The notes under the pieces: model-generated | What the model was told of the DNA's origin: nothing | Databases searched by the model: none | Seen by the model: the letters and a program-made list of their open reading frames with translations, nothing else | Program-made: the position numbers and the translations under genes | Shown here: one piece after another, positions 20,310 through 28,905 of the stretch | How the letters are laid out: every line of letters starts with the position of its first letter | Position numbering within the stretch: position 1 is the stretch's first letter | Assembly: GCA_045613265.1 (NCBI GenBank) | Contig: JAZLAP010000027.1 | Coordinates: 1-35,095, forward strand | Direction: 5' to 3' | DNA: 35,095 bases | Origin: Eubacteriales bacterium | GTDB taxonomy: Bacteria > Bacillota > Clostridia > Oscillospirales > CAG-272

Positions 20310-20338
20310 ATTATACCACTATATTACATACTTGTCAA
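20310..20338 (-). promoter_or_regulatory. Sigma-A type promoter of the polysaccharide operon
   Basis: The minus strand reads TTGACA (20338..20333), a 17-nt spacer, then TATAAT (20315..20310). An AT-rich tract lies upstream. The predicted leader to ATG 20183 is about 120 nt. Confidence 0.65.
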
Positions 20339-20523: not shown

Positions 20524-20553
20524 AAAAGGAGCAGAGACTTCTCTGCTCCTTTT
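20524..20553 (-). terminator. Rho-independent terminator after the radical SAM gene
   Basis: AAAAGGAGCAGAG-ACTT-CTCTGCTCCTTTT is a perfect 13-bp stem with a 4-nt loop and U-runs on both strands. It lies 64 nt beyond the stop at 20617. Confidence 0.75.
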
Positions 20554-20616
20554 GAACCTTGAAAATATGGATATTTTTTACCTTTTAAGGAAAGTCGAAC
20601 CTTGCCCGCTTGCTTT

Positions 20617-21720
20617 TCAGGAAAGCTCATTCAGCAAAATATCAATAGCGCGCAGGTTATACCCTACCTCATCCTCCGGACAATCGAGTCGCCCGTTCCG
20701 ATACAGGACGAAACGGAAGTAAGCGGTTGCCTTGAAGATGATCTTCTGCAGCTTGCACCACGAATCGTCCTTCTTCATCGGATCGCCCGTCGCCTCGTAA
20801 TTGGCACCGTAACAATTCTGACAAATGCGAAGTGCCGCACAATCGCAGCAGGGAGACGGAAAATCCTCCCGAAACAATTCGTCACGAAATTCAAGCGAAC
20901 GTGCTGCCGCCGCCCGTTCCTCGCCGAGCGTGACCGGCATGAAAAATTGACACGGGTAGGCGATACCGTCCACATCGTAAGAAAACATCTCTTCTCCCGC
21001 ACCGCATTGACGAAAAGACTGATCGGGTGCCGCAGAAGCGATCATCTGGATGGGAACGTTCAGAAGCTGACAGGGTGCAATATCGGGATGCGCCAGATAA
21101 TAGTCGATCAGCTTCATCAGCTCCCGTTCAAGAATCGCCTCGTTTTCGGGATTCGACCAATCGATGTCGTACGCCAGATTGCAGGTAAAGCGATAACCGT
21201 TCTCGTGCATAAAAATAATGCCGTCCGAAAGATCGGGAAGCGTTTCGGCAGACACCGTCATCTTCATCGCCTGCGTCGGCCAGGTTTTTGCAAAAAAATC
21301 GACGTCGATCCGATCAAAGCTGTTGCTGCGATTCGTATCGTGCATCTTTTTGTTGCCGTCGAGCGACAATCCGCAAACAAAAATATCGGCGTGCGTTCTC
21401 AGCCATTCCTTGACCTCGCCGTGCACCATCGTACCGTTTGTGGTTGCCATAAAGACCATCATTTTTTCGGGATAAGTCGTTCTGGCATAGTACACGCTCT
21501 CGCGGATCAGATCGAATTTCAAAAACGGCTCTCCGCCGAAAAAATCAATTTCGTACTCGTCGAAGTTTTCGTCGTCATCCAATGCCTCGTCAAGAATCTT
21601 CTTAACGAGAGGAAAATCCATTTCACGCTTCGACTTGTTGTTCTCATAACAATACGAGCAACGCAGGTTGCACGCCTGCGTTACCGTAAGTGTTATGATC
21701 TTTCTTCTTTGATCCGCCAT
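20617..21720 (-). CDS. Radical SAM / SPASM-domain peptide-modifying enzyme (no N-terminal RRE-sized extension)
   Basis: 367 aa. CNLRCSYC (CX3CX2C) sits at residues 17-24 and is followed by FFGGEPF. The C-terminal Cys set is QCGAGEEMFSYDVDGIAYPC (CX12GX4C), then PCCDCAALRICQNC (CX2CX5CX2C), then SWC, which is a full SPASM pattern. The ATG is 2 nt after the stop of the Cys-rich peptide gene. Confidence 0.9.
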   Translation of the reverse strand: MADQRRKIITLTVTQACNLRCSYCYENNKSKREMDFPLVKKILDEALDDDENFDEYEIDFFGGEPFLKFDLIRESVYYARTTYPEKMMVFMATTNGTMVHGEVKEWLRTHADIFVCGLSLDGNKKMHDTNRSNSFDRIDVDFFAKTWPTQAMKMTVSAETLPDLSDGIIFMHENGYRFTCNLAYDIDWSNPENEAILERELMKLIDYYLAHPDIAPCQLLNVPIQMIASAAPDQSFRQCGAGEEMFSYDVDGIAYPCQFFMPVTLGEERAAAARSLEFRDELFREDFPSPCCDCAALRICQNCYGANYEATGDPMKKDDSWCKLQKIIFKATAYFRFVLYRNGRLDCPEDEVGYNLRAIDILLNELS

Positions 21721-21722
21721 TC

Positions 21723-21905
21723 TCAGAAAAGTGCCGAGCAGGTGGATTTACATGCCGCCTGGCAGGTGGAGCCGCAATGACCGCTGCAGTTGCTGCCGCA
21801 GTCCTTCTTCGTGTGTACGTTCTTGTCGAGCGCCTTCGGCGTTACATCGTGCTCGAGAAGCGCGTCCTTCAGAATCGCCTTATCCTTCGTAGACAAAACA
21901 AACAT
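21723..21905 (-). CDS. RiPP precursor peptide, 60 aa, six Cys at strict CX3 spacing (SCIFF-like / CXXX-repeat)
   Basis: The peptide is MFVLSTKDKAILKDALLEHDVTPKALDKNVHTKKDCGSNCSGHCGSTCQAACKSTCSALF. GAAGGAG RBS lies 8 nt upstream of ATG 21905. The track ORF start at 21959 lies inside the -10 box, so I reject the 78-aa version. Confidence 0.8.
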   Translation of the reverse strand: MFVLSTKDKAILKDALLEHDVTPKALDKNVHTKKDCGSNCSGHCGSTCQAACKSTCSALF

Positions 21906-21957
21906 GATCTTCACTCCTTCGTTTTTGTTCCGTATCGTAACGGATTCTACCGCTTGC

Positions 21958-21986
21958 ATTATAGCACCATCCAGAGGCTATGTCAA
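21958..21986 (-). promoter_or_regulatory. Sigma-A type promoter of the peptide/rSAM operon
   Basis: The minus strand reads TTGACA (21986..21981), a 17-nt spacer ending in TGc (extended -10), then TATAAT (21963..21958). Confidence 0.7.
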
Positions 21987-22070
21987 TACGTTTCATACAA
22001 ATCTTTGCGTAACAGGCGCAAAACTTTCTTTACATCACACAATTTTCACACGCTTTTCACATCGGAATCG

Positions 22071-22099
22071 TTTACATTCTGTTCATACTGTGGTATAAT
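22071..22099 (+). promoter_or_regulatory. Sigma-A type promoter for the membrane-protein pair
   Basis: TTTACA (22071-22076), a 17-nt spacer ending in TGg (extended -10), then TATAAT (22094-22099). Confidence 0.6.
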
Positions 22100-25464: not shown

Positions 25465-25848
25465 GTGACGCGCGTGTTTTATATTGATCCGACGGTAAAA
25501 ACGCCGATATACGAGCAGATACGCTCCGAGATCCTCGGCATGGTCTCGCGCGGCGAGCTGACTGTGGGAGACAAGCTACCGTCGATCCGCACACTGTCCG
25601 CCGAGATCGGCATCAATGTCAATACCGTCAAAAAGGTTTTTGCGCTTCTCGAAGCCGACGGTGTGATCGAAACCGTCACGGGAAGCGGCAGCTATATTGC
25701 CGCCACCGCGCACCGTAACGAGCAGCTTCTCGCGCGTGCAAGAGAGGAGCTTCGGATCGCGGCAATGCACGCAAGAAATGCAGGGCTTTCGCTCGACGAG
25801 GCAATGTATACGATTGAAACAACCTATAAGGAGGACAAGAAAACGTGA
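25465..25848 (+). CDS. GntR-family transcriptional regulator, YtrA subfamily (short, no large effector domain)
   Basis: 127 aa. PIYEQIRSEILGMVSRGELTVGDKLPSIRTLSAEIGINVNTVKKVFALLEADGVIE is the winged-HTH region. GTG 25474 is an alternative start with better spacing from AAAGGCGG. Confidence 0.85.
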   Translation: MTRVFYIDPTVKTPIYEQIRSEILGMVSRGELTVGDKLPSIRTLSAEIGINVNTVKKVFALLEADGVIETVTGSGSYIAATAHRNEQLLARAREELRIAAMHARNAGLSLDEAMYTIETTYKEDKKT

Positions 25849-26759
25849 TCTCCATCAAAAATCTGTCGAAGTCCTTCGACGAAAAAACCGTGCTTTCCGA
25901 TATCTCGCTTGATATCCGCGACGGCTCGCTCTTCGGGCTGATCGGCTGCAACGGTGCGGGAAAGACTACGCTTCTTAACGTGATCTCAGGCTTTTACACA
26001 CCGTCCTGCGGCAGTGTATCGGTCAGCACCGGAAGCGGTGCCTGCAATCCCTACGACAACCCCGAGGTAAAAAAGGAATTATTCTATCTTACCGACGATA
26101 TGTATTTTATGCCGCACGCCACATTAAGTGACATGCGCGACTACTATGCAGGCTTTTATCCCACGTATAGCGATAAAAGCTTTGCCGCTCTCTGTGACCT
26201 GTTTGCGCTATCGACCGACAAGCCGCTCCACACCTTTTCAAAGGGCATGAAGCGGCAGGCATCGCTCTGCATCGCGCTCGCGAGCGGTGCAAGAACGCTT
26301 CTCCTCGACGAGACCTTTGACGGACTCGACCCCGATAAGCGCCGCACCGTCCGCAGTCTGCTCGGCGAATATATGTTGGAAAAGAATGCAACGGTCGTGC
26401 TTTCCTCGCATAACCTATTCGAGCTGGAAAGCATCTGCGATACGATAGGCATGTTGAACGGTACGCGTCTTGCCTTCCACGGCGATGTCGAGGAAATGAA
26501 ATCGCGCATCTTCGGCTATACCGCCATTATTGCAGGCAACTGCCCCGCAAGCGTATTTGACGGACTCCGCGTGCGTTCGCTCACGCAGGACGGCAGCATG
26601 CTTACCTTTCTCAGTGAGGAAAACGAGGAAACCCTGCGAAAGCGTATTGAAGCGCACGCCACTCTGCGCAAAATGGAAGCGCGCCGTCTGAATCTGGAAG
26701 AAATCTTCGATTACGAAATGGAGGGACAAAGCCGTGAGATCACGCACATCTTCTCATGA
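25845..26759 (+). CDS. ABC transporter ATP-binding protein
   Basis: 304 aa with Walker A GCNGAGKTT, signature-like FSKGMKRQ and Walker B LLLDETFDGLD. The GTG start forms a GTGA overlap with the GntR stop. RBS AAGGAGGA lies upstream. Confidence 0.9.
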   Translation: MISIKNLSKSFDEKTVLSDISLDIRDGSLFGLIGCNGAGKTTLLNVISGFYTPSCGSVSVSTGSGACNPYDNPEVKKELFYLTDDMYFMPHATLSDMRDYYAGFYPTYSDKSFAALCDLFALSTDKPLHTFSKGMKRQASLCIALASGARTLLLDETFDGLDPDKRRTVRSLLGEYMLEKNATVVLSSHNLFELESICDTIGMLNGTRLAFHGDVEEMKSRIFGYTAIIAGNCPASVFDGLRVRSLTQDGSMLTFLSEENEETLRKRIEAHATLRKMEARRLNLEEIFDYEMEGQSREITHIFS

Positions 26760-28905
26760 AACGGTTATGCACACGCTAAAAACCACGTGGCAAGGCTACG
26801 GAAAGGGGATGATCCTGCTCGCCATCGCCTTTTTCATCGCCGTTGCGGGTACGGGCTTCTGGAGATGCCTTCCTTTCTTTCTCTCTTCCGAGGTTACGCG
26901 CTACGCCTACATCCTGATGGACGGCTTGGTCGCCTTCGTGCTTCCCGTCCTACTCCCCGTGATCGGTGCCGCCGTTGCCCTTTCGCTCTTTTCCTTTCTG
27001 TTTTCGAAGCGCAAAGCCATGCATGTCACGCTGTTCGGCGGCGACCGCATACTGCTTTTCTGTGTTCGCTTCCTGTTCGGTGCTCTGTCGCTCACCGCAA
27101 TGCTGTTCCTTTCGCTTCTCGCCTCTTACCTGATTTCAAGCTTCGCCTTCGGCTTCACCGCCATCGCCGCCCGAAATTACGTTTATACTTTCCTCGCGCT
27201 CACAGAAACCTTTCTGCTTCCTTATACACTGACAGCCCTCTTCGCCATGCTTTCGGGGCGCCTTTCCGAGGCGTGTGTCAGCTCGCTTATCGCCCTTTTA
27301 TTGCCCGAGGGACTGACTTTGCTCGTGCGTAATTTCGCTTCAAACTTCCTGTTTGGCGCATTGACAAACGGCGAGTTCTTTGCCGAAACGGCATTCACGA
27401 CGCAAAGCAGCGTATCCTTTGTAAAGCCCTTCGGCTATACCGACTTATTGCCTCGGTTTTACGTCTGCTATAACAAAAATATCACGGCGGAGGAGATCGC
27501 CGCGAATTATCCCGTTTTCTACGCAAAGATCATCCAGTACGCAGTCATCATTGCCCTTTTTTCGGTCGCGGCAGGCCTGCTCTTCAAAAATCAACCGATG
27601 GAGCACATTGAAAAAAGAAATGTGCGCCCCTACGTGTCGTATACGGTTGCGGGATTATCGGCGGCAGTGCTTGCCTCCTTCCTTGCATGGATCCCAAATC
27701 GTGTCGTCGCGGTCATCGCAGTCATTTTCGCCTTTCTCGTCCTATTCTTTTTCTTCCTCTCCTTTTACAAAAAGGGTTTCTCCGGCTTCCAAGCCTCCTG
27801 CAAGGTCGCCCTTCCCGCAAGCGGCGCACTTCTTATCATCATGACGACCTTTCTCTGCGGCTTTTTCGGATTTTCGTCGCGTACGCTTCACTGGTCGGAA
27901 ATCGAATCGGTTTCCATCGAATACGTTGGCATGTCATATCACCCGACGGAATATAGCATAGGCGGATATGGAGCCTCCTACACCGTTTATCCGCGCGTGC
28001 AAGGCAAGCTTATTGAGATCACAAACCCGAACAATGCATGGAAGGTGACCGAGATACACAACGCTATTATCGCCGACGGATACTGTGCAAAAACCAACAC
28101 CGTTCCCGAAAATGCGAGCGACACCGTCGTGGGTGCAAACATCACGATTCGCTATACATTGAAGGATGGCTCCAAGCTGATCCGTACCTACCCGAACCTC
28201 AAGCTATCAACGCTTGCGCTTTTGCCCGAGCTTGACGAAAAGGCAGACTACCAAGCCGCGATCCTCGCGCTCTACACGCCGTCGGACGAACTTCCCGAGG
28301 GTACGGACGGCGGTATCGAGATCCGATCCGAAAACCACTTCTATATTTCGGGCAACACGGGCGACAATCTCGTTAAGGTGACACTGAACGACACCGATAT
28401 GCGGACACTTCTTGCCGCTATCCGTAACGATAAAAAAAACGAAAAGGCTGCTAAACGTTACTTCCCCGAGGAGGACTGCCTCGGCATCCTCTATTTTCCC
28501 GATCCCGGCTACACAAGCATCTTGCACGATGAAACCATGACGCGCGCCTATATCTACGCCGGCGATGTAAACACGATCAATTTCTTGCGCGAAAAAGAAA
28601 TGTATGACGTCTTCACGAGAGGCTACACCGTCAAAGAATGCACGGTATACGAAATGCCGCTCGTCATGAACGAGGATCGCTTTGACCCCGTCTATTCACG
28701 CGTATTCCAGCTGACCGATATAATCGTCGTTCCCACCGAAATGACAGAAAACCCGATCGCACTCAGCGACGCGGAGCTTTCCCGCGTATTGGACAATGCG
28801 CGCGCCGTTTACTTCGTCAAGGATCACGGATACCTTTTGCAGCTTCGCATCACCGACGCCGACGGCAACTGGCTTACCGTCTATAAATTCTCTCCGAAGG
28901 AATAA
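26734..28905 (+). CDS. Large polytopic membrane protein with a roughly 330-aa C-terminal extracytoplasmic domain (putative transporter partner, function unknown)
   Basis: 723 aa. There are about 9-10 hydrophobic helices in the first 390 or so residues, followed by a hydrophilic domain with no motif I recognise. GTG 26734 is preceded by GGAGGG at 8 nt and overlaps the ATPase gene by 26 nt. Confidence 0.7.
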   Translation: MRSRTSSHETVMHTLKTTWQGYGKGMILLAIAFFIAVAGTGFWRCLPFFLSSEVTRYAYILMDGLVAFVLPVLLPVIGAAVALSLFSFLFSKRKAMHVTLFGGDRILLFCVRFLFGALSLTAMLFLSLLASYLISSFAFGFTAIAARNYVYTFLALTETFLLPYTLTALFAMLSGRLSEACVSSLIALLLPEGLTLLVRNFASNFLFGALTNGEFFAETAFTTQSSVSFVKPFGYTDLLPRFYVCYNKNITAEEIAANYPVFYAKIIQYAVIIALFSVAAGLLFKNQPMEHIEKRNVRPYVSYTVAGLSAAVLASFLAWIPNRVVAVIAVIFAFLVLFFFFLSFYKKGFSGFQASCKVALPASGALLIIMTTFLCGFFGFSSRTLHWSEIESVSIEYVGMSYHPTEYSIGGYGASYTVYPRVQGKLIEITNPNNAWKVTEIHNAIIADGYCAKTNTVPENASDTVVGANITIRYTLKDGSKLIRTYPNLKLSTLALLPELDEKADYQAAILALYTPSDELPEGTDGGIEIRSENHFYISGNTGDNLVKVTLNDTDMRTLLAAIRNDKKNEKAAKRYFPEEDCLGILYFPDPGYTSILHDETMTRAYIYAGDVNTINFLREKEMYDVFTRGYTVKECTVYEMPLVMNEDRFDPVYSRVFQLTDIIVVPTEMTENPIALSDAELSRVLDNARAVYFVKDHGYLLQLRITDADGNWLTVYKFSPKE

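What the first reader, a model, noticed from the sequence alone, without database searches (positions are those of the whole stretch)
20524..21986. Self-contained two-gene RiPP module: a (C-X3)x6 peptide plus an RRE-less radical SAM/SPASM enzyme
Seen in sequence: ORF 21905..21723 encodes a 35-aa Cys-free leader (MFVLSTKDKAILKDALLEHDVTPKALDKNVHTKKD). The core that follows is CGSNCSGHCGSTCQAACKSTC-SALF, with Cys at residues 36, 40, 44, 48, 52 and 56, exactly every fourth residue. The gene has a full-consensus promoter (TTGACA-N17 with TGn-TATAAT) and a GAAGGAG RBS. Its stop lies 2 nt from the ATG of a 367-aa protein. That protein has CX3CX2C at residues 17-24 and a complete C-terminal SPASM Cys set, and a strong hairpin terminator follows. 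Established knowledge: rSAM/SPASM enzymes next to Cys-rich peptides install Cys-to-carbon thioethers (sactipeptides, ranthipeptides). The QAACKSTC stretch resembles the SCIFF core as I remember it (..CQSACKTSC..). The characterised SCIFF maturases (CteB, Tte1186) are about 450 aa and carry an N-terminal RRE-like leader-binding domain. Inference: the enzyme here starts directly with the rSAM motif, so it has no room for an RRE. The leader is much longer than in SCIFF and the Cys spacing is perfectly periodic. No protease, exporter or immunity gene is in the operon. This therefore looks like a divergent, chemically uncharacterised branch of the Cys-rich rSAM peptide systems whose product, crosslink topology and role are unknown. 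Caveat: I recall a purely bioinformatic TIGRFAMs family named for radical SAM maturases with CXXX-repeat targets. This pair may belong to it, and I cannot test membership here.
Basis: partly seen in the sequence, partly recalled or inferred. Interest (0 to 1): 0.8.

Follow-up and report, generated by a model that had tools for sequence, protein, structure and literature searches.

The report
Cys-every-fourth peptide with radical SAM maturase
A small self-contained two-gene operon encodes a 60-residue peptide with a cysteine at every fourth position and a compact radical SAM/SPASM enzyme that most likely cross-links it; it belongs to a large, unnamed and chemically uncharacterised family of gut-anaerobe peptide-modification cassettes related to known thioether-forming systems.

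Summary
The pair is real. In about 58 of 62 complete related loci, from at least seven phyla, an "MF-x-L" leader / CX3-repeat peptide (4-18 Cys) lies beside the enzyme.

The enzyme has no RRE: β1 starts at residue 6 (AF2 pLDDT 92.7) and there is no PqqD-like hit.

It fails every curated membership test:
- PapB: 151 vs 340 bits
- TIGR04115 CXXX-repeat maturase: 130 vs 350
- SCIFF maturase: 88 vs 425
- Peptide against TIGR04117: 17 vs 50; no SCIFF peptide hit

None of 45 diverse family members does better. This is therefore an unnamed sister family, with at least 150 representatives at the 50%-identity level.

The most likely mechanism is iterative Cys-to-carbon thioether formation. Supporting evidence is the closest relatives and folds (PapB, CteB), seven invariant SPASM Cys as in CteB/QhpD, and a repeat-unit substrate. 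This remains inference, and the acceptor and regiochemistry are unknown.

In this branch no protease, exporter or third gene is conserved.

It is a good genome-mining lead and a new variant of a known kind, not a new category.

The parts
21958..21986 (-). Sigma-70-type promoter, TTGACA-N17-TATAAT with an extended -10 TG
   Evidence: 12 of 12 hexamer matches with TG present. The sequence is read directly.
21914..21920 (-). Ribosome-binding site GAAGGAG, 8 nt upstream of the peptide ATG
   Evidence: Read directly from the sequence.
21801..21905 (-). Leader region of the precursor peptide (residues 1-35, Cys-free). It starts with the family-wide MF-x-L motif, followed by a helix-like stretch with spaced hydrophobic residues.
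   Evidence: Across 32 family peptides, M1 is present in 31/32, F2 in 28/32 and L/I/V4 in 29/32.
21726..21800 (-). Core region (residues 36-60), CGSNCSGHCGSTCQAACKSTCSALF: six Cys in exact CX3 register plus a SALF tail. The stop codon is at 21723-21725.
   Evidence: Family repeat statistics: a Cys-Cys spacing of 4 in 152 of 204 intervals, position +2 is 50% Gly, position +3 is 53% Thr/Ser. The core is under purifying selection.
20617..21720 (-). 367-aa radical SAM/SPASM peptide maturase with no RRE. Its start lies 2 nt after the peptide stop and has no Shine-Dalgarno of its own.
   Evidence: Pfam Radical_SAM and Fer4_12. Best NCBIfam hits are PapB and TIGR04115, both below cut-off. AF2 pLDDT is 92.7, with β1 at residues 6-14. 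Foldseek finds CteB, anSME and ChlB.
21649..21672 (-). Codons 17-24, C-x3-C-x2-C: the radical SAM [4Fe-4S]/SAM-binding motif
   Evidence: Invariant in 45/45 family members.
20755..21006 (-). SPASM region, codons 239-322, with seven invariant Cys (C239, C257, C291, C294, C300, C303, C322)
   Evidence: each is Cys in 44-45 of 45 members, while C217 is Cys in only 32/45. The C-x2-C-x5-C-x2-C-[YF]-G-x-N-Y signature is shared with a bona fide TIGR04115 enzyme.
20524..20553 (-). Intrinsic terminator hairpin (13-bp stem, 4-nt loop), 64 nt after the enzyme stop
   Evidence: sequence.

Best explanation
This is a stand-alone, strongly promoted two-gene RiPP operon.

The 60-aa product is a precursor peptide. 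It has a leader with a conserved N-terminal MF-x-L motif and a 25-aa core made of six C-x-x-x units. The 367-aa radical SAM/SPASM enzyme is translated by coupling to the peptide ORF and is its dedicated maturase.

Most likely mechanism, by analogy with PapB, CteB and Tte1186:
1. The enzyme docks the leader without an RRE domain.
2. A substrate Cys thiolate binds the open coordination site of auxiliary cluster I.
3. SAM is cleaved at the C17/C21/C24 cluster, and the 5'-deoxyadenosyl radical abstracts an H atom from a nearby residue.
4. An intramolecular S-C thioether forms.
5. This repeats for each CX3 unit, giving a row of small in-line rings (up to six, -2 Da each).

The acceptor carbon is unknown: Cα (sactionine) or Cβ/Cγ (ranthionine). 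My best guess is a residue within the same or the adjacent repeat, because repeat number varies freely (4-18) in the family. Leader removal, export and biological role are also unknown. This branch has no dedicated protease or exporter, as in SCIFF cassettes.

Shown: the gene pair, the signals, pairing across phyla, architecture, family placement, and absence of an RRE.
Inferred: the substrate relationship (very likely), thioether chemistry (likely), and in-line topology (a guess).
For: Pairing. An MF-x-L-leader / Cys-repeat peptide lies directly beside the enzyme gene in about 58 of 62 complete loci. These come from Clostridia, Bacilli, Erysipelotrichaceae, Spirochaetes, Coriobacteriia, Bacteroidales, Anaerolineae and others. 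DNA similarity between the window and its closest relatives is confined to the cassette (20653-21828), so the two genes travel as a unit.

Enzyme kinship.
- The best full-length NCBIfam alignments are to thioether-related maturases: PapB (151.5 bits, 5-329/330) and TIGR04115 (129.9 bits, 2-359/359). CcpM, nif11, SCIFF and QhpD maturases follow.
- The best PDB sequence and fold match is CteB.
- Of the six CteB catalytic-site proximity residues (PMC10288494), F152, T186 and S210 are identical here (F61, T93, S119) and F112 is Tyr (Y25). This is read from the alignment.

Auxiliary clusters. Seven SPASM Cys are invariant and an eighth is dispensable. QhpD, CteB and Tte1186 also have seven (PMC10352776). 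PapB and Tte1186 have an open site on auxiliary cluster 1 that binds the substrate Cys/SeCys directly (PMC10177961).

Substrate logic. Cys is the only invariant core residue, and repeat number varies from 4 to 18. This fits an iterative, unit-by-unit modification like PapB on the six CX3D units of PapA (PMC9413430).

No RRE. β1 begins at residue 6 in a confident model, and Pfam finds only Radical_SAM and Fer4_12 at E<=1.
Against: - No chemistry has been measured for this family, or as far as I could find for any CXXX-repeat rSAM system.
- The window core has no Asp/Glu, so PapB's carboxylate-acceptor rule (PMC12373016) cannot apply.
- No non-Cys position in the repeat is conserved in type. Position +3 is T/S in only 53% of units and is often Gly or Ala. 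A single side-chain acceptor is therefore not evident, and Cα linkage or an entirely different reaction remains possible.
- anSME, which oxidises rather than cross-links Cys, is nearly as good a structural match and has the same RRE-less size.
- Pfam's SPASM model did not report a hit. The SPASM assignment rests on the motif, the fold and the NCBIfam alignments.
- I could not inspect model coordinates to confirm which Cys ligate which cluster.
Confidence: 0.55

Rival explanations
1. The enzyme modifies each Cys on its own rather than cross-linking it. One example is anSME-like oxidation of Cys to formylglycine. Another would be a different per-residue conversion at every fourth position.
For: anSME has the same RRE-less core + SPASM architecture and size. 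It is a strong fold match (E 5e-15, TM about 0.67) and is detected by sequence (TIGR03942, 63.9 bits; PDB 4k36/4k37). Cys is the only invariant core residue.
Against: The sequence match to anSME covers only the N-terminal rSAM half and lies far below cut-off (63.9 vs 349). Full-length matches go to the PapB and TIGR04115 maturases. The family conserves seven, not eight, SPASM Cys, whereas anSME ligates both auxiliary clusters fully (established knowledge). The anSME target motif C/S-x-P/A-x-R is absent from the core.
Confidence: 0.12
2. The cysteines stay as free thiols and serve as metal or Fe-S ligands, making a metallothionein-like or cluster-binding peptide. The rSAM enzyme then modifies other residues (for example epimerisation or C-C/C-O links), or the mature function is metal binding.
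For: A CX3 period would put all thiols on one face of a helix. The repeats are rich in Gly, Ser, Thr, Lys and Asp, as in metal-binding peptides. No exporter or protease is present in this branch, which is compatible with an intracellular role. In the close clade the core is more conserved than the leader.
Against: The closest characterised enzymes use the substrate Cys as the thioether donor. The core has no aromatic or otherwise conserved non-Cys residues that could be the real target. rSAM epimerases such as EpeE are poor matches (TM 0.38).
Confidence: 0.1
3. It is simply an ordinary member of an already named system (SCIFF/ScfB, the TIGR04115 CXXX-repeat system, or the PapB/freyrasin family) and nothing more.
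For: All three enzyme models are hit with significant E-values. The peptide weakly echoes TIGR04117/04114/04118. The SPASM signature C-x2-C-x5-C-x2-C-[YF]-G-x-N-Y is shared with a true TIGR04115 enzyme.
Against: Every curated cut-off is missed by a factor of more than two, both for the window proteins and for 45 diverse family enzymes and 32 peptides. Identity to a true TIGR04115 enzyme is 28%, and that enzyme is 728 aa with a differently organised peptide. There is no SCIFF peptide hit. There is no CX3D/E motif in the core.
Confidence: 0.05
4. The small ORF is a chance ORF and the enzyme is an orphan rSAM protein acting elsewhere.
For: No peptide homologue carries a curated name, and the ORF is only 60 codons long.
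Against: The ORF has a perfect promoter and RBS and is coupled to the enzyme ORF. It is conserved with the same leader motif and Cys register in about 58 of 62 loci. Its core carries a purifying-selection signature. No such Cys run occurred in 200 shuffles.
Confidence: 0.01

Closest known systems
PapB / freyrasin (PapA) ranthipeptide system, NCBIfam NF047865
   Same: This is the best-scoring curated model, aligned end to end (151.5 bits, model positions 5-329 of 330). Both are compact rSAM/SPASM enzymes, and both substrates are built of repeated short Cys-containing units modified iteratively. PapB makes six Cys-Asp S-Cβ links in CX3D units (PMC9413430). PapB has an open site on auxiliary cluster 1 (PMC10177961).
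   Different: The score is less than half the cut-off (340). The window core has no Asp/Glu acceptor, whereas PapB needs a carboxylate C-terminal to the Cys (PMC12373016). Here the residue at i+4 is the next Cys. The leader is different (MF-x-L type). The window enzyme also has about 50 extra C-terminal residues forming two helices (319-341 and 349-364).
TIGRFAMs/NCBIfam CXXX-repeat system: maturase TIGR04115 with target peptides TIGR04114 / TIGR04117 / TIGR04118
   Same: The target type is the same, tandem C-x-x-x repeats. The enzyme aligns over the whole 359-position model. It shares the C-x2-C-x5-C-x2-C-[YF]-G-x-N-Y SPASM signature and the C322-K motif with a bona fide member. Both are known only from bioinformatics.
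   Different: Scores are 129.9 vs a cut-off of 350 for the enzyme and 17 vs 50 for the peptide. None of 45 family enzymes does better than E=1.3e-47. The annotated A. prevotii member is 28% identical and 728 aa long, with an extra C-terminal half. Its peptide has four Cys in the middle and no MF-x-L leader, and it sits next to an ABC transporter.
SCIFF / ScfB system (CteA-CteB, Tte1186a-Tte1186), TIGR03973 / TIGR03974
   Same: Both are two-gene cassettes with no protease or exporter. Both have a Cys-rich core and a rSAM/SPASM thioether synthase. CteB is the best solved-structure match. Both have a seven-Cys SPASM.
   Different: The maturase scores 88.5 vs 425 bits, and the alignment starts at model position 97. 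The roughly 95-aa N-terminal RRE-like domain is therefore missing. The peptide gives no SCIFF hit. SCIFF Cys are not periodic. This cassette shows no conserved synteny.
Anaerobic sulfatase-maturating enzyme (anSME), TIGR03942
   Same: It has the same size and the same RRE-less rSAM + SPASM architecture, acts on Cys in a peptide, and is a strong fold match.
   Different: The sequence match covers only the N-terminal half (63.9 vs 349 bits). anSME has eight rather than seven SPASM Cys (established knowledge; for this family). anSME acts on one Cys or Ser in a folded sulfatase motif, not on a dedicated adjacent repeat peptide.
ChlB multiple-cyclophane synthase (PDB 9gm3/9gmc)
   Same: It is a 375-aa rSAM/SPASM RiPP enzyme of similar fold (TM 0.69) that was crystallised with the leader of its substrate. 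That is a precedent for leader recognition by a compact enzyme of this size. That ChlB lacks an RRE is my own recollection, not tested here.
   Different: Identity is 17-18%. ChlB forms C-C cyclophane links on aromatic residues, which are absent from this core.

Membership tests
Radical SAM / SPASM superfamily | C-x3-C-x2-C SAM-cluster motif and a Radical_SAM domain hit above the gathering score | tested here: met
   C17/C21/C24. PF04055 scores 39.3 vs 29.5 and PF13353 scores 44.1 vs 22.
Radical SAM / SPASM superfamily | C-terminal SPASM Cys set (C-x9-15-G-x4-C ... C-x2-C-x5-C-x2/3-C ... C) binding two auxiliary clusters | tested here: met
   The motif is present, and its seven Cys are Cys in 44-45 of 45 members. 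The fold matches the SPASM enzymes CteB, anSME and ChlB. Caveat: the Pfam SPASM HMM itself gave no hit at E<=1, and the clusters themselves cannot be observed in silico.
SCIFF system (TIGR03973 peptide, TIGR03974 maturase) | Peptide matches the six-Cys-in-45 model | tested here: not met
   The window peptide has no hit at E<=1. Only 1 of 32 family peptides hits, at E=0.23.
SCIFF system (TIGR03973 peptide, TIGR03974 maturase) | Maturase reaches the 425-bit cut-off and carries the N-terminal RRE-like domain | tested here: not met
   The score is 88.5 bits, and query residues 7-326 align to model positions 97-439 of 451. β1 starts at residue 6.
CXXX-repeat target system (TIGR04115 maturase) | Maturase reaches the 350-bit cut-off | tested here: not met
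   The score is 129.9 bits. The best of 45 family members has E=1.3e-47. Identity to an annotated member is 28%.
CXXX-repeat target system (TIGR04115 maturase) | Adjacent peptide with tandem C-x-x-x repeats | tested here: met
   Six Cys in exact register in the window. The same holds across the family.
CXXX-repeat target system (TIGR04114 / TIGR04117 / TIGR04118 peptides) | Peptide reaches a curated cut-off of one of the target-peptide models | tested here: not met
   TIGR04117 scores 17 bits vs 50. Across 32 peptides the best E-values are 1.1e-4, 3.8e-4 and 7.4e-4.
PapB-family ranthipeptide maturase (NF047865) | Maturase reaches the 340-bit cut-off | tested here: not met
   The score is 151.5 bits. 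The best of 45 family members has E=1.4e-49.
PapB-family ranthipeptide maturase (NF047865) | Substrate carries Cys-x3-Asp/Glu units, with a carboxylate acceptor C-terminal to the Cys | tested here: not met
   The window core CGSNCSGHCGSTCQAACKSTCSALF has no Asp or Glu. The requirement is stated in PMC9413430 and PMC12373016.
Sactipeptide / ranthipeptide RiPP classes | Cys sulfur linked to a Cα (sacti-) or a non-α carbon (ranthi-) of another residue in the mature peptide | not testable with these tools
   This needs HR-MS/MS and NMR of the modified peptide. Only indirect support exists here.
RRE-dependent RiPP maturases | A PqqD-like RiPP recognition element, fused or encoded nearby | tested here: not met
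   There is no PqqD/RRE Pfam hit at E<=1. The AF2 model shows no N-terminal domain. No conserved third gene exists in the Firmicute branch. RRE-Finder and HHpred were not available.
Anaerobic sulfatase maturase (TIGR03942) | Reaches the 349-bit cut-off, and the target has a C/S-x-P/A-x-R motif | tested here: not met
   The score is 63.9 bits, covering residues 12-134 only. The motif is absent from the peptide.

The most novel reading that the evidence does not exclude
The family makes a RiPP scaffold not yet described: a continuous ladder in which every fourth-residue Cys is tied to a carbon about one turn away. The ladder would have 6 rungs here and up to 18 in spirochaete homologues, giving a rigid polycyclic rod. 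An RRE-less enzyme would install it by reading a conserved N-terminal MF-x-L leader. Because no acceptor residue type is conserved, the chemistry would have to differ from PapB (Asp/Glu Cβ/Cγ), CteB (Thr Cγ) and NxxcB (Asn Cβ). Candidates include serial Cα links to Gly/Ser/Thr, or Cys-to-Cys carbon links. This would define a new RiPP subclass that is widespread in gut anaerobes.
Probability: 0.3. Interest if true: 0.7.

Novelty: new variant of a known kind. Interest (0 to 1): 0.5.

Why it matters
Radical SAM/SPASM cassettes with CXXX-repeat peptides have been flagged bioinformatically for over a decade. I found no published chemistry for any of them in the held library.

This window belongs to a distinct, unnamed sister family that is large and spread across gut, rumen and sediment anaerobes of several phyla. 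In its Firmicute form the cassette is minimal: one peptide, one 367-aa enzyme and no partner proteins. That makes it an unusually easy system to reconstitute.

Solving it would give three results:
- What an rSAM enzyme does with a cysteine at every fourth position.
- How a compact maturase recognises its leader without an RRE.
- A curated model to name hundreds of proteins now labelled only "radical SAM protein".

PapB-type enzymes are already used for enzymatic peptide macrocyclisation, so a relative with a different acceptor rule could also be useful as a tool.

Tried and rejected
- **Membership of SCIFF, TIGR04115 and PapB families.** Tested with NCBIfam for the window proteins and for 45 enzymes and 32 peptides of the family. 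All are far below cut-off.
- **A hidden exporter or protease in the window.** The two ~723-aa ORFs are not C39/ABC exporters: one is GH95-like and the other has no Pfam hit. The flanking genes are an EPS/capsule operon with its own promoter, TMEM164- and YhhN-family membrane proteins, and gdhA. None is syntenic with the cassette in relatives.
- **A conserved third gene.** ORF clustering over 66 loci found none in the Firmicute branch. Extras occur only in the Bacteroidales branch.
- **Mobile-element carriage.** The plasmid collection gave three records, at 27.7-35.8% identity, the best being a Phocaeicola plasmid at 35.8%. The phage collection gave three at 25-35%. In IMG/VR only L069 (36%) is in family range, and the remainder are other rSAM families. 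I found no obvious peptide next to L069.
- **RNA elements.** Rfam found nothing in the window.
- **Alternative 78-aa start at 21959 and the 392-aa antisense ORF 20602..21780(+).** Rejected as a start overlapping the -10 box and a shadow ORF, respectively.
- **Literature on CXXX-repeat rSAM chemistry, CcpM, CefB and AC3_0185.** Nothing relevant was found. The Haft & Basu 2011 paper is not held.
- **Structure prediction with the broader alignment A2.** A1 was used instead.
- **Peptide-enzyme complex prediction.** Not attempted, because fused or non-window sequences are not accepted.
Full report
**1. Observation**

- On the minus strand there is a 12/12 sigma-70 promoter with an extended -10 TG at 21986..21958.
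- A GAAGGAG ribosome-binding site lies at 21920..21914.
- A 60-codon ORF runs 21905..21723 and encodes MFVLSTKDKAILKDALLEHDVTPKALDKNVHTKKD-CGSNCSGHCGSTCQAACKSTCSALF. Cys fall at 36, 40, 44, 48, 52 and 56.
- Its stop is followed after two bases by the ATG of a 367-codon ORF (21720..20617). No separate Shine-Dalgarno precedes that ATG, which suggests translational coupling and an excess of peptide over enzyme.
- A 13-bp-stem terminator lies at 20553..20524.
- The enzyme has C17-x3-C21-x2-C24 and a SPASM-type Cys set: C239-x12-G-x4-C257, C291-x2-C294-x5-C300-x2-C303, and C322.

The periodicity is not chance. The probability is 2.8e-5 for six Cys placed in 25 positions. No such run appeared in 200 six-frame shuffles of the window. 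The longer 78-codon reading is rejected because its ATG overlaps the -10 box.

**2. The pair is real and conserved**

The enzyme has more than 895 relatives at E<=1e-10 among 90%-identity clusters. Nearly all are 360-375 aa, and where they carry a name it is only "radical SAM protein" or "4Fe-4S cluster-binding domain-containing protein". An exhaustive profile search finds at least 150 representatives at the 50%-identity level scoring 281 bits or more.

A scan of one genome per species returned 66 loci. They come from Clostridia, Bacilli, Erysipelotrichaceae, Acholeplasmataceae, Spirochaetes, Coriobacteriia, Bacteroidales, Anaerolineae and a Rhodospirillaceae MAG. Most are from gut, rumen or faecal samples.
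- In 51 loci a small ORF with a run of C-x3-C-x3-C lies upstream of the enzyme, in nearly all of them within about 300 bp.
- In at least eight more, a similar peptide lies just downstream or has a mixed CX2/CX3 spacing.
- That gives about 58 of the 62 loci with a complete enzyme gene.

The peptides share an N-terminal M-F-x-[LIV] motif: M1 31/32, F2 28/32, L/I/V4 29/32. Their cores hold 4 to 18 Cys. Of 204 Cys-Cys intervals, 152 are exactly four residues. Within the repeat, position +2 is Gly in 50% of units and position +3 is Thr or Ser in 53%.

Between the window and its closest relatives, synonymous codon changes in the core are about as frequent as non-synonymous ones. The leader diverges much faster. 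So the ORF is a protein-coding gene under selection. Unusually for a RiPP, the core is the more conserved part within this clade.

**3. Context**

Nucleotide similarity between the window and its relatives stops at the cassette edges, 20653-21828. The flanking genes differ between genomes.

In the window the neighbours are:
- An EPS/capsule operon downstream with its own perfect promoter, encoding a PseC-like aminotransferase, a sugar-phosphate transferase, a GNAT and a WcaI-like glycosyltransferase.
- Divergent TMEM164-family and YhhN-family membrane proteins.
- gdhA.
- A GntR / ABC ATPase / unknown 723-aa gene set.

No C39 peptidase, ABC bacteriocin exporter, protease or RRE protein is present. 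Clustering of all neighbouring ORFs shows no conserved third gene in the Firmicute branch. The Bacteroidales branch is richer. It has one or two ~175-aa proteins directly downstream (15 loci), an M42 aminopeptidase (8 loci), a second 425-aa rSAM/SPASM enzyme with an ~80-aa N-terminal extension, and integrases. Matches in the plasmid, phage and IMG/VR collections are few (six records in the plasmid and phage sets) or weak (27-36% identity at best; most IMG/VR matches are other rSAM families at 24-31%). Rfam finds nothing in the window.

**4. The enzyme**

Pfam reports only Radical_SAM and Fer4_12. The AlphaFold2 model is confident, with pLDDT 92.7 and pTM 0.89. Its first β-strand is at residues 6-14, so there is no N-terminal domain. 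After the SPASM region come two helices, at 319-341 and 349-364. Foldseek against the PDB gives CteB first (E 5e-18), then anSME and ChlB. CteB is also the best match by sequence.

It is not distinctive, however. The two closest curated models, PapB (330 positions) and TIGR04115 (359 positions), also start at the rSAM motif.

Seven SPASM-region Cys are invariant across 45 diverse members, while C217 is Cys in only 32. QhpD, CteB and Tte1186 are also seven-Cys enzymes (PMC10352776). PapB and Tte1186 have an open site on auxiliary cluster 1 to which the substrate Cys/SeCys binds (PMC10177961).

I mapped the six CteB catalytic-site proximity residues of PMC10288494 through the alignment. This gives Y25, F61, T93, S119, Q258 and F259, against F112, F152, T186, S210, H363 and Q364 in CteB. 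Three are identical and one is conservative.

**5. Membership tests**

| Model | Score (bits) | Cut-off (bits) |
|---|---|---|
| PapB, NF047865 | 151.5 | 340 |
| TIGR04115 | 129.9 | 350 |
| CcpM | 118 | 500 |
| SCIFF maturase, TIGR03974 | 88.5 | 425 |
| anSME | 63.9 | 349 |
| Peptide vs TIGR04117 | 17 | 50 |

The SCIFF maturase alignment starts at model position 97. The peptide has no SCIFF hit.

The same holds for the whole family. Among 45 enzymes the best E-values are 1.4e-49 (PapB) and 1.3e-47 (TIGR04115). Among 32 peptides there are only sub-threshold echoes of TIGR04117, TIGR04114 and TIGR04118.

A bona fide annotated TIGR04115 enzyme, on Anaerococcus prevotii plasmid pAPRE01, is 28% identical over the shared 370 residues. 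It shares the C-x2-C-x5-C-x2-C-[YF]-G-x-N-Y signature. It is 728 aa long, and its peptide carries four CX3-spaced Cys in the middle with no MF-x-L leader.

So the cassette works like the CXXX-repeat and PapB systems but is a member of neither. It belongs to an unnamed sister family.

**6. Mechanism**

I commit to iterative thioether formation, with confidence about 0.55 for the chemistry and about 0.9 for the precursor-maturase relationship. The proposed steps are:
1. The leader docks without an RRE.
2. A substrate Cys binds auxiliary cluster 1.
3. The 5'-deoxyadenosyl radical abstracts an H atom from a nearby residue.
4. An S-C bond forms, once per CX3 unit.

The free variation in repeat number (4-18) argues for local, in-line rings rather than a nested hairpin. 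The acceptor cannot be read from sequence. The window core has no Asp or Glu, which excludes PapB's carboxylate rule (PMC12373016). No non-Cys repeat position is conserved in type. That leaves Cα linkage, Thr/Ser linkage where available, or unprecedented Cys-to-Cys carbon links.

The rivals are per-residue Cys conversion in the anSME manner (0.12), Cys as metal ligands with a different modification (0.10), ordinary membership of a named family (0.05) and a spurious ORF (0.01).

**7. Novelty and score**

Searches of the held literature found no chemical characterisation of any CXXX-repeat rSAM system. Subscription-only papers are not covered.

The kind is known: a Cys-rich peptide with a rSAM/SPASM maturase, CXXX-repeat targets and SCIFF-like two-gene economy. 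The particular enzyme family, the leader type and the strict CX3 core without acidic acceptors are a new variant.

A specialist would see a solid genome-mining lead with an easy experimental path, rather than a surprise. Interest is 0.5.

Noticed in passing
L041-L058 and L064 (for example L042:3356-7640, L044:1500-6096): The Bacteroidales branch of the family has larger clusters. The gene order is M42-family aminopeptidase, then a second 425-aa rSAM/SPASM enzyme with an ~80-aa N-terminal extension, then the CX3 peptide, then the family enzyme, then one or two ~175-aa proteins. The ~175-aa proteins have no NCBIfam hit and only a weak GNAT-like Pfam hit. Tyrosine integrases are often nearby.
   Followed up: partly
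L016:1258-1596 and L017:4723-5061: Spirochaete homologues encode 112-aa precursors with 18 Cys in almost unbroken CX3 register (…CKTSCKTTCKGGCHATCKTTC…). This is the longest ladder seen.
   Followed up: no
L013:5997-6437, L014:7105-7281, L026:7082-7306, L028:4486-4692, L030:6996-7301, L031:7099-7365: In several loci the MF-x-L / Cys-repeat peptide lies downstream of the enzyme instead of upstream. L013 and L041 carry two different peptides. Gene order is therefore not fixed in the family.
   Followed up: partly
window 21726-21905 (-), compared with L001, L002, L003, L004 and L038: Within the window's clade the core is much more conserved than the leader, which is the reverse of the usual RiPP pattern. 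In the core, synonymous changes are about as frequent as non-synonymous ones, and the C-terminal S-x-L-F tail is kept. In the leader, 19-27 codons carry non-synonymous changes against 5-8 synonymous.
   Followed up: partly
window 21657-21685 (-): An 11-bp-stem hairpin lies inside the first 65 nt of the enzyme ORF, across the codons just before the CX3CX2C motif. It has no T-tract after it. It could lower enzyme translation relative to the peptide, or it could be chance.
   Followed up: no
window 20310-20338 (-) and 22071-22099 (+): A second perfect 12/12 promoter with TG lies 186 nt downstream of the cassette terminator and heads the EPS/capsule operon. An 11/12 promoter on the plus strand serves the divergent TMEM164-family gene. 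A small bidirectional hairpin (22003-22023) sits between the divergent promoters.
   Followed up: no
window 25465-28905 (+): A GntR regulator, an ABC ATPase and a 723-aa protein with no Pfam hit form a YtrA-like set about 4 kb from the cassette on the other strand. It is not syntenic with the cassette in relatives, so I did not treat it as an exporter for the peptide.
   Followed up: partly
L067 (NC_013164.1, 1-5334): On Anaerococcus prevotii plasmid pAPRE01 a bona fide TIGR04115 enzyme is 728 aa long. Its C-terminal half weakly repeats the barrel/SPASM half. It sits between a 56-aa CX3 peptide and a 41-aa ORF, followed by an ABC transporter and a class III lanthionine synthetase LanKC.
   Followed up: partly
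L069-L148 (IMG/VR viral contigs): 288 stretches in viral contigs encode rSAM/SPASM relatives of the query, but at 24-31% identity, so they belong to other families. Only L069 reaches 36%, and I found no obvious Cys-repeat peptide next to it.
   Followed up: partly
P0067 (599 aa): One family member is called as a 599-aa protein that also carries type IV coupling-protein domains (PF10412, PF02534, PF12696). This is either a gene-call fusion or a cassette adjoining a conjugative element. Serine recombinases and XRE-type regulators also recur near Firmicute loci.
   Followed up: no
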